Assembly (NCBI GenBank): GCA_902555985.1
Contig: CACDUI010000001.1
Span: forward strand, 67,291-131,290
Direction of reading: 5' to 3'
DNA: 64,000 bases
Source: an uncultured Candidatus Actinomarina sp.
GTDB lineage: Bacteria; Actinomycetota; Acidimicrobiia; Actinomarinales; Actinomarinaceae
Under the pieces are notes generated by a model, which made no database searches, was not told the origin of the DNA, and saw only the letters and a list, made by a program, of their open reading frames with translations. Below, piece after piece: positions 6,668-53,995 of this stretch; the first letter of the stretch is position 1, and the number at the start of each line of letters is the position of its first letter. A program made the translations under genes and the position numbers.

Positions 6668-6868
6668 TTATCTATTTATTAAGGATGCGATAGACCAAAT
6701 AGTTATTAATAGTCCAACAGTTATTAAAAATATTGTTCTTCTCATATAAATATTTTCTTTATTTTCATTCTTGTTAAAAAAAGCAGCTAAATTTCCTGCA
6801 ACCATTGCTGCTCCAACACCCAAAAGTAGGAGAATAATTGTTAAATCTAGTGCAAATGGATCATTCAT
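6668..6868 (-). CDS. Small two-helix membrane protein (hypothetical)
   Basis: 66 aa with two clear hydrophobic segments, sitting between dcd and a divergent kinase gene. No homology recognised. Confidence 0.25.
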   Translation of the reverse strand: MNDPFALDLTIILLLLGVGAAMVAGNLAAFFNKNENKENIYMRRTIFLITVGLLITIWSIASLINR

Positions 6869-7736: not shown

Positions 7737-7806
7737 AAAGGTTTTCAATTAATGACGAAAACCCGTTAGACTTTCGCAGTTAGGAAAAAAGGAAATTATT
7801 TAATTT

Positions 7807-7902
7807 ATGGGATCTTTGATTAAAAAAAGACGTAAAAAAATGTCAAAACATAAATATCGTAAACGTCGTAAATCAAATAGACATAAGAAGAAAAGCGTTT
7901 AA
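7807..7902 (+). CDS. Ribosomal protein bS22-like (31 aa, Lys/Arg-rich); missed by the >=60-aa ORF track
   Basis: ATG GGA TCT TTG ATT AAA AAA AGA CGT ... TAA encodes MGSLIKKRRKKMSKHKYRKRRKSNRHKKKSV. This closely resembles mycobacterial bS22 (MGSVIKKRRKRMSKKKHRK...). A purine-rich stretch (AGGAAAAAAGGAAA) lies about 10 nt upstream. The stop abuts the next gene. Confidence 0.7.
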   Translation: MGSLIKKRRKKMSKHKYRKRRKSNRHKKKSV

Positions 7903-8751
7903 CTAAATTTCTCTTTCTTCATTTAAGAAATCTTCGATTTGTTGAACAAGATTGTCTTCTGAAAAATTATCTTCAATGCTGACATCTGCTTCTTCAAGCT
8001 TAGAAACGTACTCAGCTAAATCTTCTGAATTCTCCATTGCTTTATTAATCTTAAGATCAAACTGTTGACCTTCACTTTGTATTCCAGAATCATCAATTTC
8101 AATTTTTAAAATATCTGAAGTTTTATTAAGGAGTGCGCTCATTCCTTTAGGATACCCACCACTACTTAAATAGTGAGGCACTGCTGCCCAAAGTCCTGCA
8201 GTTTCAATTCCACTATCTCGCAAATTTTGACCAACAACGCTTGTTATACCTGTAGGTCCAGAGTAATTAGGGTTAAGAACGTTGTGTCTTGAATGAAAAG
8301 TTGGGTCTCCACTAACACCGAATATTGGAACTGGCAATGTGTGTGCTACTTGTCCAAAAAAAGCACCTAATGTTACTGCTTTTTTAACTCCTAGCTCAAG
8401 TAGAGTATCAGAAATGTTCCTAGAGTAATCTTTCCACTTCATAGAAGGTTCTTCACCAAAAACAAGTATCAAGTCACTTTTTAACTTGTAGTCTTCGATT
8501 GAGTAAAAGGAAGTTTGAGGCCAGTGAAAGTTTCTTTCCCCAAATTCTTTAACTTCTACAACAGGTCTTCTCATTTGATAGTTGTAATATGAATCTGAGT
8601 TCAGCTCGGCAAACGGTTCTACATCATAAGTGCTACTCAAGTTTTCTACACATCCAGTTGCGGTGTTTCCTGCATCACTCCAACCCTCGAAAGCAAGAAT
8701 AGCTACTGGTTCTGATAAAAGTGGTTTTCTATACCAAACTACGTCTTCCAT
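7903..8751 (-). CDS. PAC2 (proteasome assembly chaperone 2)-family protein
   Basis: N-terminal VAILAFEGWSDAGN matches the conserved AFEGWNDAG block of bacterial PAC2-family proteins. Acidic C-terminus. Confidence 0.5.
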   Translation of the reverse strand: MEDVVWYRKPLLSEPVAILAFEGWSDAGNTATGCVENLSSTYDVEPFAELNSDSYYNYQMRRPVVEVKEFGERNFHWPQTSFYSIEDYKLKSDLILVFGEEPSMKWKDYSRNISDTLLELGVKKAVTLGAFFGQVAHTLPVPIFGVSGDPTFHSRHNVLNPNYSGPTGITSVVGQNLRDSGIETAGLWAAVPHYLSSGGYPKGMSALLNKTSDILKIEIDDSGIQSEGQQFDLKINKAMENSEDLAEYVSKLEEADVSIEDNFSEDNLVQQIEDFLNEEREI

Positions 8752-8794
8752 ATTTGAAGGATAATCTCTAAACAGATTTATTTAAGATTTAATT

Positions 8795-10876
8795 TTAGAG
8801 TTTTCTTGAAGAGTTGATGACAACAGAAATGCTTGAAAGGGCCATTGCTAATGCAGCTAAATTAGGCGTAATGATACCTATTACTGCAATAGGTATCATT
8901 AAAGTGTTGTAAATAAATGCGAGAAAAAGGTTTTGATATATTCTAAGTTTTGACTTTTTAGATAATTTAAATATTTTATTTATAGTTTCTAAACCACCCT
9001 TGTGAATTAAAATATCTCCAGAAACTTGTGCTATCTGACTACTTGAAGAAGTAGTCACACCAACATCCGCTTGCTTGATAGAAGGTGAATCATTAATCCC
9101 ATCACCGATAAAAATAACTTGATTGCTTTTTTGCTTATTTTTTATAAACTCTAATTTTTCTTCAGGGTTTTTACCAGAGTGGTATTCATCTATGTTATGA
9201 TTTTCAGCAAATTTTTTAACATTAATTTGTTTATCACCTGAGAGAATTATGATTTCTTTTTTTGACTTAAGTTCACCTAAAAAATCTGTTGAAACAGAGG
9301 ATTCTTCTTCCAAGTAAATAATATAGATTTTCTCATCGATTGTAATCTTCAAAGAGGATTCTTTTGACTCATTATTTTTTTGAATCTTAATATTTTGTCC
9401 TTCAACAACTCCTTCAATACCAACACCTGATTCTTCTTTTACGTCCTGGGCTGAAAGCAGAGTTATTTCTCTTACTTCAGCTTGATAAACTATACTTCTT
9501 GCTATTGGATGTTGTGAGAAATTTTCAACACTTGCAACTAATTGCAAGAACATTTCTTCAGGTATGCCTTCTACAGGCATTTCTATTTTTGATATTCTAA
9601 AAATTCCAGACGAAAGCGTTCCTGTTTTATCGAAGATCATTGTGTTAATATCGCCAAACTTTTGTAATATATCAAAATTCTTAAAAAGAAATCCACTTAT
9701 TTTACTTTTTGTTGCTGTTTTAAATAAAACAATTGGTGTCGCAAGACCCAATGCACATGGACATGCAATTACAAGAACAGCAATTGAATTTTTTAATGCT
9801 TCTATTAAAACAATGTCTTGAATGAAATATTTATATAAAAATGTACTAAAACTTATAAGTAAGACAGTTGGTACAAAAAATTGTGTTATTTTGTCTAGGG
9901 ACTTTTGAATTTCTGGTTTTGTGCCTTGAGCCTTCCTTATCAAATCTTCAATGATGTTGTATGTTGATTTTTGGTAAGATTCTTTAACTTCAACTTCAAG
10001 ACTTCCTTGCAAGTTGATGCTTCCACCAACTACTTTGTCACCCATGTTTTTTGGCAAGGGAATGGACTCGCCAGTTAATAAGCTTTCGTCAACTGTTGTT
10101 TCTCCCCTGATAACTTCCCCATCAACAGGAATAAGCTGACCTGCAAGAACCGTAAATACATCTTTGATTTGAACATCTTTTGTAGGTATTTCGATATTTT
10201 CACCACTTCTTTTAACAATTAGTGTTTTAGGCATTCTACTTTTAATCGATTCAGAAGTTTTTACAGACTCTTCAATAACCTTGTCTTCAACTGACTTTCC
10301 AATAAGTAAAAATGAAATAATAAATGCCCCAGTATCTAGAAACATTTTGTTTTCTCCTGCTGATGAAACTAGCTGAGCAGGCAAAATAGAAATCAGTAGA
10401 GAGCTCAAGCTCCCCAAGGAGATTAATGTGTCCATGTTAAAATCGAAACTTTTAATTTTCTTATAGGCAGAAATATGAAAATTTCTTCCTAAATAAAGGA
10501 CAACAAAAAAACCTACAACATAGGCTAAGCCGTCATAACCTGTTTCAAAAAGATACTTCAGCGACAAAGTCATTAATAAAGAAATTATCGGTAAAAGTAA
10601 CTTAAGTTTTATTTTTTTATCTTCAACCTCACCTGATGCTTCTTTAGCTTTATACCCTATTTTGTTCACAGATTTGATAATTTCTTCTAGGCTATTGTTC
10701 TCGTCTGAAATGTCAACAATTGCAGATTTTAGAGGAAAGCTTACAGATGCATCAAGAACATTTTCATTTTTGGAAAGAATGCGTTCAATACGTGCTGCAC
10801 AAGCAGCACAAGTCATACCATCAATATCAAGATTTATTGATTTAACTTGGCTGGACAACTGTGTAACCTTGTTCAT
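8795..10876 (-). CDS. copA: Copper-translocating P1B-type ATPase
   Basis: N-terminal HMA domain (GMTCAACAARIE), CPC transmembrane metal site (ACPCALG), DKTGTLS phosphorylation motif and GDGINDSP hinge. Confidence 0.9.
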   Translation of the reverse strand: MNKVTQLSSQVKSINLDIDGMTCAACAARIERILSKNENVLDASVSFPLKSAIVDISDENNSLEEIIKSVNKIGYKAKEASGEVEDKKIKLKLLLPIISLLMTLSLKYLFETGYDGLAYVVGFFVVLYLGRNFHISAYKKIKSFDFNMDTLISLGSLSSLLISILPAQLVSSAGENKMFLDTGAFIISFLLIGKSVEDKVIEESVKTSESIKSRMPKTLIVKRSGENIEIPTKDVQIKDVFTVLAGQLIPVDGEVIRGETTVDESLLTGESIPLPKNMGDKVVGGSINLQGSLEVEVKESYQKSTYNIIEDLIRKAQGTKPEIQKSLDKITQFFVPTVLLISFSTFLYKYFIQDIVLIEALKNSIAVLVIACPCALGLATPIVLFKTATKSKISGFLFKNFDILQKFGDINTMIFDKTGTLSSGIFRISKIEMPVEGIPEEMFLQLVASVENFSQHPIARSIVYQAEVREITLLSAQDVKEESGVGIEGVVEGQNIKIQKNNESKESSLKITIDEKIYIIYLEEESSVSTDFLGELKSKKEIIILSGDKQINVKKFAENHNIDEYHSGKNPEEKLEFIKNKQKSNQVIFIGDGINDSPSIKQADVGVTTSSSSQIAQVSGDILIHKGGLETINKIFKLSKKSKLRIYQNLFLAFIYNTLMIPIAVIGIITPNLAALAMALSSISVVINSSRKL

Positions 10877-53143: not shown

Positions 53144-53995
53144 TTATAAAGCTTGAATCCAATCTTCAGGATTGTCATCAACAAAAAAGTCTGAAACCAG
53201 AGTTGCTTCTGGATCAATCGCGTACTGATCAAAATCTGTAATACCTTCTTCTTCTAAAACATCTTGATCTAAAAAGAAATTACCTGTACATGTTGAAGAA
53301 TCTCTCTTTAATACTGCATAAGCAGCATCTGCATAAATAGATGGCTTTCTAGATCCTTTTACCAACTCTTCACCAATTACATTTCTGACAGCGGCAGTAT
53401 CAAGCGAGGTTCTTGGCCAAAGGCAATTAGACGCTACATTCTGTTTTCCAAGTTCTTCAGCTAAGCCATGAGCAACAAGTGACATTCCGTATTTTGCTGT
53501 TGTATAAGCTAATGTAATTCCAAACCACTTTCTTGATATATCAAGCGGCGGGGAAAGGGTTAAGATATGGGAATTATCGCCCTTTATTAAATGAGGAATA
53601 CATTTTTGACTAAGCATGAATGTTCCTCGAACATTAATGTTGTGCATTAAGTCATATCTTTTCATTGGAGTATTGATTGTATCGGTTAAATGAATAGCAC
53701 TTGCATTATTGATACAAATATCGATACCGCCAAATTTGCTCGCAGTTTCTTCAACAGCAGCTTCTACTTGCTCTTCGTATCTAATATCACAAACTATCGG
53801 AAGAGCAGTTCCTCCTACTTCCTCAATTTCTTTTGCAGCTGTAAAAATAGTACCTGGAAGTGTAGGATGTGGCTCAGTTGTTTTCGCTAGTATTGCAATA
53901 TTTGCACCATCTCTTCCTAATGCTTTTGCAATTTCAAGACCCACACCACGTGAGCCTCCACTCATTATTACTGTTTTGTTTTTAAAATATGTCAT
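53144..53995 (-). CDS. Short-chain dehydrogenase/reductase (SDR)
   Basis: SGGSRGVGLEIA cofactor motif and the YTTAKYG catalytic YxxxK. Confidence 0.85.
   Translation of the reverse strand: MTYFKNKTVIMSGGSRGVGLEIAKALGRDGANIAILAKTTEPHPTLPGTIFTAAKEIEEVGGTALPIVCDIRYEEQVEAAVEETASKFGGIDICINNASAIHLTDTINTPMKRYDLMHNINVRGTFMLSQKCIPHLIKGDNSHILTLSPPLDISRKWFGITLAYTTAKYGMSLVAHGLAEELGKQNVASNCLWPRTSLDTAAVRNVIGEELVKGSRKPSIYADAAYAVLKRDSSTCTGNFFLDQDVLEEEGITDFDQYAIDPEATLVSDFFVDDNPEDWIQAL

What the first reader, a model, noticed from the sequence alone, without database searches (positions are those of the whole stretch)
7807..7902. 31-codon ribosomal protein bS22-like gene missed by the ORF track
MGSLIKKRRKKMSKHKYRKRRKSNRHKKKSV has the length, composition and N-terminal MGS(V/L)IKKRRK motif of bS22, the tiny Lys/Arg-rich 30S protein first seen in mycobacterial ribosomes. 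A purine-rich tract precedes it and its stop abuts the next gene. It also acts as a lineage marker, since bS22 has a restricted phylogenetic distribution.
Basis: partly seen in the sequence, partly recalled or inferred. Interest (0 to 1): 0.5.

Follow-up and report, generated by a model that had tools for sequence, protein, structure and literature searches.

The report
Small ribosomal protein bS22 gene
The 31-codon reading frame is a real, strongly conserved gene for the tiny ribosomal protein bS22 in a marine actinobacterium (Candidatus Actinomarina); it is an ordinary member of a known family.

Summary
The ORF is at 7807-7902 (+) and encodes the quoted 31-aa peptide. It is a real gene. In 50 Candidatus Actinomarina species genomes, found through the neighbouring PAC2 gene rather than the ORF, the frame is always intact with no indels. 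Residues 1-29 are invariant, and all 22 variable nucleotide sites in those codons are synonymous. In contigs of up to 73% GC the DNA is recoded while the peptide is kept (25/87 nt differ, 28/29 aa identical).

It passes Pfam PF08213 (COX24_C/DUF1713): 35.3 bits against a cut-off of 23. Its only NCBIfam hit is the bS22 equivalog (E 1.4e-6). It also matches bS22 chains of solved Mycobacterium and Cutibacterium ribosomes. Shuffled controls give no hit. Lys16, the helix-44 contact in M. smegmatis, is conserved.

Caveats:
- The NCBIfam score of 28.3 is below the naming cut-off of 34.
- The Shine-Dalgarno-like tract sits 13 nt from the start.
- Ribosome binding is inferred, not shown.
- "Missed" reflects only a length threshold, since public assemblies already call this gene.
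- Presence of bS22 alone is a weak lineage marker (also Bacteroidetes, Borrelia; homologous to mS38).

The finding is already known in kind and of low interest.

The parts
7807..7902 (+). Coding sequence of the 31-aa bS22 orthologue (ATG to TAA, stop included)
   Evidence: Translation. Pfam PF08213 at 35.3 bits against a gathering score of 23. NCBIfam NF047430 ribo_bS22 is the only hit, E 1.4e-6, 28.3 bits. Matches PDB bS22 chains. In 50 species genomes residues 1-29 are invariant and all 22 variable nucleotide sites are synonymous.
7782..7795 (+). Purine-rich tract AGGAAAAAAGGAAA in the presumed 5' UTR; a likely weak or long-spaced Shine-Dalgarno element (inferred)
   Evidence: Sequence. The tract is present in nearly all 50 Actinomarina loci. 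Its GGA ends 13 nt before the ATG, whereas other SD-like cores in the window lie 4-11 nt away. In higher-GC relatives, 46 of 49 loci have an SD core 3-12 nt before the start.
7766..7793 (+). Conserved intergenic block TTAGACTTTCGCAGTTAGGAAAAAAGGA. It contains a -10-like TAGACT (7767-7772, TANNNT type), suggesting the mini-gene has its own promoter (inferred)
   Evidence: The block is conserved across the Actinomarina loci while the surrounding intergenic DNA varies. The hexamer varies as TAGAAT, TAGACT or TACACT. The block is unique in the window, with 0 matches expected by chance. The simple sigma-70 scan did not flag it.
7903..8751 (-). Context only: a convergent PAC2-family gene whose stop codon touches the bS22 stop
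   Evidence: ORF. PF09754 PAC2 is recorded on the orthologous gene in L001-L010. The convergent bS22/PAC2 arrangement is kept in all 50 Actinomarina genomes and in 17 of 28 high-GC contigs with enough downstream DNA.

Best explanation
The ORF is the gene for ribosomal protein bS22 of a Candidatus Actinomarina bacterium.

Shown here: it is a protein-coding gene under very strong purifying selection, and it is homologous to the bS22 proteins modelled in actinobacterial ribosome structures.

Inferred from those structures and the literature: the 3.9-kDa peptide (55% Lys/Arg) is translated from its own short transcript and inserts as a bent helix into the pocket formed by 16S rRNA helices h2/h27/h44/h45, next to the decoding centre. 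There its basic side chains, including the conserved Lys16, contact the rRNA backbone. It would also contribute an inter-subunit contact to the 23S rRNA (given as H68 in one paper, H67 in the other).
For: - Family match: PF08213 COX24_C at 35.3 bits against a cut-off of 23, E 1.1e-8. The only NCBIfam hit is the bS22 equivalog, E 1.4e-6.
- Solved structures: phmmer hits bS22 chains of Cutibacterium (8crx_X) and Mycobacterium (32nj_x, 5o5j and others) ribosomes, aligned from residue 1, with 16/29 residues identical.
- Control: shuffles of the peptide give no hit.
- Graded series: intact 29-32-codon ORFs from metagenomes link this peptide to the Mycobacterium type. A profile of that series hits bS22 chains at E about 5e-13 and mS38 chains at about 1e-5 (the alignment included one M. 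smegmatis row).
- Near relatives pass the strict rule: sequences 90-93% identical to this one, with L or I at position 21, pass the NCBIfam cut-off at 35.3 and 36.9 bits.
- Coding selection: 50 species genomes found via PAC2 (83-98% PAC2 identity) all carry the ORF with no indels. Residues 1-29 are invariant, and all 22 variable sites are synonymous. Among distinct alleles pS is 0.41 and pN/pS 0.013. All other frames either contain stops or score worse.
- Recoding: in L071 (62% GC contig) 25/87 nt differ, 21 of them at third positions, yet 28/29 aa are the same.
- Translation signals: 46/49 relatives outside Actinomarina have an SD core 3-12 nt before the start.
- Key residue: Lys16, reported to contact h44 in M. 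smegmatis (PMC10081302), is invariant in alignment A3.
- Published properties: bS22 proteins are described as 55-65% basic (PMC10085706) and as binding in the h2/h27/h44/h45 pocket (PMC10618245).
Against: - The NCBIfam score (28.3 bits) is below the curated cut-off of 34.
- The C-terminal half (KRRKSNRHKKKSV) differs from the structurally characterised Mycobacterium type ([15 protein letters not shown]); the two hydrophobic residues at positions 20-21 are replaced by Arg.
- In this genome the SD-like tract is 13 nt from the ATG, and no terminator-like site was found.
- There is no direct evidence of expression or of presence in the ribosome. No rRNA lies in the window, so the binding pocket could not be examined.
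- Synonymous divergence is about six times lower than in the neighbouring PAC2 gene (0.12 against 0.68). Some nucleotide-level constraint or codon bias therefore acts as well.
Confidence: 0.93

Rival explanations
1. A conserved, translated cationic peptide that carries the COX24_C-like sequence but acts mainly outside the ribosome, for example as an antimicrobial or cell-penetrating peptide.
For: Synthetic C. acnes bS22 inhibited growth of other bacteria and inhibited cell-free translation (PMC10085706, read). bS22 is dispensable for growth in M. smegmatis (PMC10081302). The peptide is 55% Lys/Arg.
Against: Every structurally studied homologue sits in the 30S subunit. The Actinomarina peptide has lost the hydrophobic residues at positions 20-21, so it is less amphipathic than the peptides that were tested. 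There is no signal peptide or export gene next to it. Invariance of 29/29 residues across a genus fits an rRNA-embedded protein better.
Confidence: 0.04
2. A chance ORF in an A-rich intergenic stretch of a 32% GC genome. AAA/AAG runs read as Lys and give a spurious low-complexity match to a Lys/Arg-rich profile.
For: The window holds 634 ORFs of 20-70 codons. The genome is AT-rich. The profile is short and compositionally biased.
Against: All 22 variable sites in codons 1-29 are synonymous, where about 18% would be expected under neutrality; as a rough calculation that ignores shared ancestry, the chance of this is about 4e-20. There are no indels in 50 genomes. The peptide is kept in contigs of 60-73% GC with recoded DNA. 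Shuffled peptides of the same composition do not hit the profile.
Confidence: 0.01
3. A conserved non-coding RNA or regulatory element (small RNA, 3' UTR of the upstream kinase-like gene, or antisense partner of the PAC2 3' end) that only happens to be open in one frame.
For: Synonymous divergence is about six times lower than in PAC2. The upstream block 7766-7793 is conserved. The gene is convergent with PAC2 and has no terminator.
Against: Variation has a strict three-base periodicity: across the whole ORF, 23 of 29 variable sites are third positions, and within codons 1-29 all changes are synonymous. The nucleotide sequence is not conserved in high-GC relatives, but the peptide is. There is no Rfam family in the window. 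Relatives carry SD motifs in front of the start.
Confidence: 0.01

Closest known systems
bS22 of Mycobacterium smegmatis / M. tuberculosis (MSMEG_0945; 33 aa; PDB 5o5j, 5o61, 5v93 and others)
   Same: Same length class and the same N-terminus (MGSxIKKRRKxMSK.K.RK): 16/29 residues identical, aligned from residue 1 without gaps. Lys16 is conserved. Both belong to the same Pfam domain and the same phylum.
   Different: The C-terminal half is KRRKSNRHKKKSV instead of [15 protein letters not shown], and the peptide is 31 rather than 33 aa. It scores 28.3 bits on the NCBIfam model, against 62.6 for the M. smegmatis protein. The downstream neighbour here is a convergent PAC2 gene; the mycobacterial neighbourhood was not examined.
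bS22 of Cutibacterium acnes (33 aa, PDB 8crx chain X; annotated as AURKAIP1/COX24 domain-containing protein)
   Same: Best bS22-named PDB match (E 0.0037 in pairwise phmmer), with 16/28 residues identical. It is described as a helical peptide lying between h27, h44 and h45 (PMC10085706).
   Different: Same C-terminal differences as for the Mycobacterium protein. Antimicrobial activity has been shown only for the C. acnes peptide.
'KHKYRKRxKANRHK' subtype of bS22 in uncultured high-GC bacteria (metagenome loci L069-L110; probably other Acidimicrobiia, taxonomy not established here)
   Same: 76-97% identical over 29 residues to the window peptide. The same convergent PAC2 gene, often followed by copA, lies downstream in 17 of 28 contigs with enough sequence.
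   Different: Most have L, I or V at position 21 and A at position 23, where Actinomarina has R21 and S23. They have a clear GAGG-type SD 3-10 nt from the start. Some use GTG or TTG starts.
bS22 of Flavobacterium johnsoniae (7jil) and Borreliella burgdorferi (8fmw); mitochondrial mS38 (AURKAIP1/Cox24) C-terminal domain; eukaryotic eL41
   Same: Short basic helix reported in the equivalent small-subunit pocket (PMC10618245). Weak but detectable sequence similarity: E 0.02-0.5 pairwise, and mS38 at about 1e-5 with the profile.
   Different: They lack the MGSxIKKRRK N-terminus. mS38 proteins are much longer, with the domain at the C-terminus. The Borrelia gene uses a GUG start and was not annotated in its genome (PMC10618245).

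Membership tests
bS22 (small-subunit ribosomal protein; Pfam PF08213 COX24_C/DUF1713) | Match to the COX24_C/DUF1713 domain model above Pfam's gathering score | tested here: met
   35.3 bits against a cut-off of 23, E 1.1e-8, residues 1-29 on profile positions 1-29 of 33. Nine shuffles of the peptide give no hit.
bS22 | Sequence homology to proteins physically modelled as bS22 in solved bacterial ribosomes | tested here: met
   phmmer against PDB: 8crx_X at E 0.0037 and 32nj_x/5o5j at E 0.013, aligned from residue 1. A profile of the graded series A3 gives E about 5e-13 to these chains (A3 contains one M. smegmatis row, so this match is partly by construction).
bS22 | Reaches the curated cut-off of the NCBIfam equivalog NF047430. 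This is an annotation naming rule, not a biological property. | tested here: not met
   28.3 bits against a cut-off of 34, although it is the only family hit at E 1.4e-6. Relatives 90-93% identical, with L or I at position 21, score 35.3 and 36.9 and pass. Those with Q or R at position 21 score 25-30 and fail. At E <= 1e-8, 16 of the 26 sequences in the series match. An HMM-only pipeline would therefore not name this gene bS22.
bS22 | About 28-35 residues and 55-65% Lys/Arg (figures from PMC10085706 and PMC10618245) | tested here: met
   31 aa, 17 Lys/Arg (55%), calculated pI about 12, 3.9 kDa.
bS22 | Conservation of Lys16, the residue reported to contact the h44 backbone in M. smegmatis (PMC10081302) | tested here: met
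   K16 is present here and invariant in the 26-sequence alignment A3 and in the 15-sequence alignment A1.
bS22 | Maintained as a protein-coding gene (purifying selection on the peptide) | tested here: met
   50 of 50 genomes are intact, with 0 amino-acid changes in residues 1-29 and 22 synonymous variable sites. In a 62% GC contig 28/29 aa are identical although 25/87 nt differ.
bS22 | Physically bound in the 30S pocket formed by 16S helices h2/h27/h44/h45 | not testable with these tools
   This needs ribosome cryo-EM or mass spectrometry. There is no rRNA gene in the window to inspect the pocket.
bS22 | Expressed at ribosomal-protein levels | not testable with these tools
   No transcriptome or proteome data are available here. 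The indirect hints are a conserved -10-like element and purine tract, and synonymous divergence lower than in the neighbouring gene.

The most novel reading that the evidence does not exclude
The Actinomarina form (Arg at positions 20-21, Ser23) might be a functionally shifted bS22 that has become indispensable in one of the smallest free-living bacterial genomes. The evidence for unusual constraint is 29/29 invariant residues and slowed synonymous change, whereas the M. smegmatis orthologue can be deleted without a growth defect.

Alternatively, the deeply conserved tail-to-tail arrangement with PAC2, which here has no spacer or terminator, might couple expression of the two genes through overlapping transcripts.
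Probability: 0.08. Interest if true: 0.35.

Novelty: already known. Interest (0 to 1): 0.12.

Why it matters
The practical value is for annotation.

- Very short ribosomal protein genes are lost under ORF-length thresholds.
- This lineage's bS22 also falls about 6 bits short of the NCBIfam naming cut-off.
- In high-GC relatives the same gene is often called with a spurious N-terminal extension.
- Large protein collections that drop proteins shorter than 40 aa cannot see it at all.

Biologically, the finding confirms that a highly streamlined marine actinobacterium keeps bS22 under very strong constraint. It also independently supports placing the window in Actinomycetota. It opens no new question.

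Tried and rejected
- The listing of cluster members did not find the exact sequence, although the gene-position index holds it in 259 blocks. That collection appears to lack proteins this short.
- The search of protein representatives returned only 41-100-aa entries with the bS22 core at the C-terminus of over-extended gene calls, or in one case followed by a C-terminal extension. This was useful for showing the subtype exists in high-GC genomes, but it gave no taxonomy or context.
- Rfam found no RNA family in the window.
- The promoter/terminator scan found nothing specific next to the ORF. The -10-like TAGACT rests on conservation only.
- A leader-peptide or upstream-ORF role was rejected because no co-directional gene follows the ORF.
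- The antisense frame -2 is open and has a low pN/pS (0.13), but its wobble positions coincide with those of the sense frame. It has no listed ORF of 25 aa or more, and it scores ten times worse than the sense frame.
- Structure prediction was not attempted. A 31-aa peptide that folds only inside rRNA would give an uninformative model.

Full report
**Observation**

The window carries an ATG-to-TAA reading frame at 7807-7902 on the plus strand. It translates exactly to MGSLIKKRRKKMSKHKYRKRRKSNRHKKKSV. An in-frame TAA at 7801-7803 leaves the ATG at 7807 as the only possible start.

A purine-rich tract, AGGAAAAAAGGAAA (7782-7795), precedes the ORF, and its GGA ends 13 nt before the ATG. The stop touches the stop of the next gene. 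That gene, a PAC2-family protein at 7903-8751, lies on the minus strand, so the two genes are convergent.

A 31-codon ORF is unremarkable in a 32% GC sequence: the window has 634 ORFs of 20-70 codons. This one is the extreme outlier in Lys+Arg content, at 0.55 against a mean of 0.11 (sd 0.07).

**Is it a gene?**

I collected related loci through the neighbouring PAC2 protein, so that the ORF itself did not bias the sample. This gave 50 species-representative genomes, almost all labelled Candidatus Actinomarina or OCS155, with PAC2 83-98% identical to the window's.

- Every one of them has the mini-ORF intact at the same place, with no insertion or deletion. Residues 1-29 are invariant, and only the last two residues vary.
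- In codons 1-29 there are 22 variable nucleotide sites: 20 at third positions and 2 at first positions of Arg codons. All are synonymous.
- Among the 31 distinct alleles, pS is 0.41 and pN/pS is 0.013. The small non-zero pN comes only from path averaging of CGT-to-AGA changes.
- Four of the other five frames contain stops in most or all alleles. The fifth is the antisense frame whose wobble positions coincide with the sense wobble; it scores ten times worse.
- About 18% of sites are synonymous, so chance cannot explain an all-synonymous pattern. A rough calculation that ignores shared ancestry gives about 4e-20.

A metagenome scan with the peptide alignment added 67 loci with GC content from 29% to 73%. 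The complete copies encode intact 29-32-codon ORFs. In L071, a 62% GC contig, 25 of 87 nucleotides differ from the window, 21 of them at third positions, yet 28 of 29 residues are the same. Of the 49 loci outside Actinomarina, 46 have a Shine-Dalgarno core 3-12 nt before the start (AGGT was also counted as a core, which is slightly lenient).

It was tested, and the opposite was found.

**What is it?**

- Pfam: COX24_C (PF08213, formerly DUF1713) at 35.3 bits, above the gathering score of 23.
- NCBIfam: a single hit, the equivalog 'ribo_bS22' (NF047430), E 1.4e-6 and 28.3 bits. This is below its curated cut-off of 34.
- PDB sequences: the peptide aligns from residue 1 with bS22 chains of Cutibacterium acnes (8crx_X) and Mycobacterium (5o5j and others) ribosomes, and more weakly with mS38 chains. 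Identity to the M. smegmatis protein is 16/29, concentrated in MGSxIKKRRKxMSK.K.RK.
- Control: nine shuffles of the peptide and another Lys-rich small ORF from the window give no COX24_C hit, so the match does not come from composition alone.

The sub-threshold NCBIfam score is explained by the C-terminal half. The window peptide belongs to a 'KHKYRKRxKANRHK' subtype. Members with L or I at position 21, which are 90-93% identical to the window peptide, pass the cut-off at 35.3 and 36.9 bits. Those with Q or R at position 21 score 25-30 bits. The metagenome peptides form a graded series from this subtype to [32 protein letters not shown], which is essentially the Mycobacterium type. A profile of the series hits bS22 chains at about 5e-13 and mS38 chains at about 1e-5 (the alignment included one M. 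smegmatis row).

Lys16 is invariant in the series. A preprint on the M. smegmatis deletion strain identifies this residue as the contact with the helix-44 backbone that shapes the aminoglycoside pocket (PMC10081302).

**How it most likely works**

Shown: this is a conserved coding gene, and it is homologous to bS22.

Inferred from published structures: the peptide forms a bent basic helix buried in the pocket made by 16S helices h2, h27, h44 and h45, near the decoding centre. It also touches the 23S rRNA (given as H68 in PMC10618245 and H67 in PMC10085706), adding an inter-subunit bridge.

Inferred from conservation: the gene probably has its own promoter. A block at 7766-7793 (TTAGACTTTCGCAGTTAGGAAAAAAGGA) is conserved while the surrounding intergenic DNA varies. 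It is unique in the window. It contains a TANNNT-type hexamer (TAGACT, TAGAAT or TACACT), which from general knowledge resembles actinobacterial -10 elements. A start site near 7778-7781 would give a 5' UTR of about 28 nt that carries the purine tract.

The 13-nt spacing of the tract is longer than the 4-11 nt seen for other SD-like cores in this window, so how translation is initiated here is the weakest step. No terminator-like site lies between the convergent genes.

**Context**

The order kinase-like gene, then bS22, then convergent PAC2, then copA with a small HMA-domain gene, is the same in ten public assemblies that encode the identical peptide and in all 50 Actinomarina genomes.

The convergent PAC2, often followed by copA, is also present downstream of bS22 in 17 of 28 high-GC contigs that have at least 1.5 kb of downstream DNA. 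PAC2 in those contigs is only 35-46% identical to the window's. Contigs with the more Mycobacterium-like peptide lack this neighbour.

**Comparison with what is known, and novelty**

- bS22 was found in mycobacterial ribosomes and is described as conserved throughout Actinobacteria (PMC10081302).
- It has since been seen in C. acnes (PMC10085706), in Bacteroidetes, and in Borrelia, where it was not annotated and uses a GUG start (PMC10618245).
- It is homologous to mitochondrial mS38 and structurally analogous to eL41.
- No paper in the searched library links it with Actinomarina.
- The exact protein is already a called gene in 259 blocks of public assemblies.

This is therefore an ordinary orthologue of a known ribosomal protein in a phylum where it is expected. 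As a lineage marker, the N-terminal motif fits Actinomycetota. Presence of bS22 in itself is not narrowly diagnostic.

**Residual points of interest**

- Synonymous divergence of the mini-gene relative to the window is about six times lower than that of PAC2 (0.12 against 0.68). This fits codon selection in a highly expressed gene or AT-biased Lys codons, but it was not resolved.
- The Actinomarina form replaces the hydrophobic residues at positions 20-21 with Arg.
- bS22 is dispensable in M. smegmatis (PMC10081302), yet here 29 of 29 residues are frozen across a genus. Whether it matters more in this streamlined genome cannot be tested with these tools.

**Verdict**

The finding is already known in kind and of low interest (0.12). 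Its value is mainly as an annotation note.

Noticed in passing
L043 (NYXO01000052.1) and L049 (NZKG01000031.1): Two contigs carry the Actinomarina-type PAC2 + bS22 locus (PAC2 84% identical to the window's). They are filed in public MAGs named 'Methanobacteriota archaeon ARS96' and 'Marinoscillum sp. MED1001', so they are probably mis-binned.
   Followed up: no
P0001-P0056, e.g. P0022, P0045, P0050: In the 1.84-billion-protein representative library, the bS22 core appears only inside 41-100-aa entries. It usually sits at the C-terminus after a non-conserved Ala/Arg/Pro/Gly-rich stretch. These look like gene calls extended upstream across GC-rich non-coding DNA. P0002 instead has a 34-aa C-terminal extension.
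   Followed up: partly
window 7807-7902; The exact 31-aa protein is on record as a called gene in 259 blocks of assemblies. It is absent from the 15-billion-protein collection, whose search tool refuses queries under 40 aa. Very short proteins appear to be invisible to that resource.
   Followed up: partly
L069-L110 (metagenome contigs, GC 45-72%); window 7807-10876: The arrangement of bS22, convergent PAC2 and then a copA-type P-type ATPase is kept in 17 of 28 high-GC contigs, although PAC2 is only 35-46% identical there. This gene order is old, probably spanning Acidimicrobiia, and has no obvious functional link.
   Followed up: partly
L070, L072, L101, L107, L110, L113, L114, L121: Several relatives start the mini-gene with TTG or GTG instead of ATG. 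This echoes the GUG start reported for the Borrelia bS22 gene and is another reason why automatic annotation can miss it (PMC10618245).
   Followed up: no
window 7807-7893 compared with 7906-8751: Synonymous divergence of bS22 relative to the window (mean pS 0.12) is about six times lower than in the adjacent PAC2 gene (0.68) in the same 22 genomes. Candidate causes are codon-usage selection, AT-biased Lys codons and an RNA-level constraint; none was tested.
   Followed up: no
window, e.g. gene starts at 53995(-), 57191(-), 49930(-), 56393(-): Many long ORFs in the window have no SD-like motif. Instead they have a TANNNT-like hexamer (TAGAAT, TATAAT) a few bases before the ATG, which suggests leaderless transcripts. 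The ORF starts were chosen only crudely.
   Followed up: no
window 6668-6868 (-): A 66-aa hydrophobic ORF with no Pfam hit is called at the same position in all ten public assemblies examined. It is probably a conserved small membrane protein.
   Followed up: no
window 7900-7905; L001-L010 5093-5096: The 3' ends of the convergent bS22 and PAC2 genes abut in the window (TAA followed by CTA). In other Actinomarina genomes, where PAC2 is 283-286 aa instead of 282, they overlap by 4 nt.
   Followed up: no
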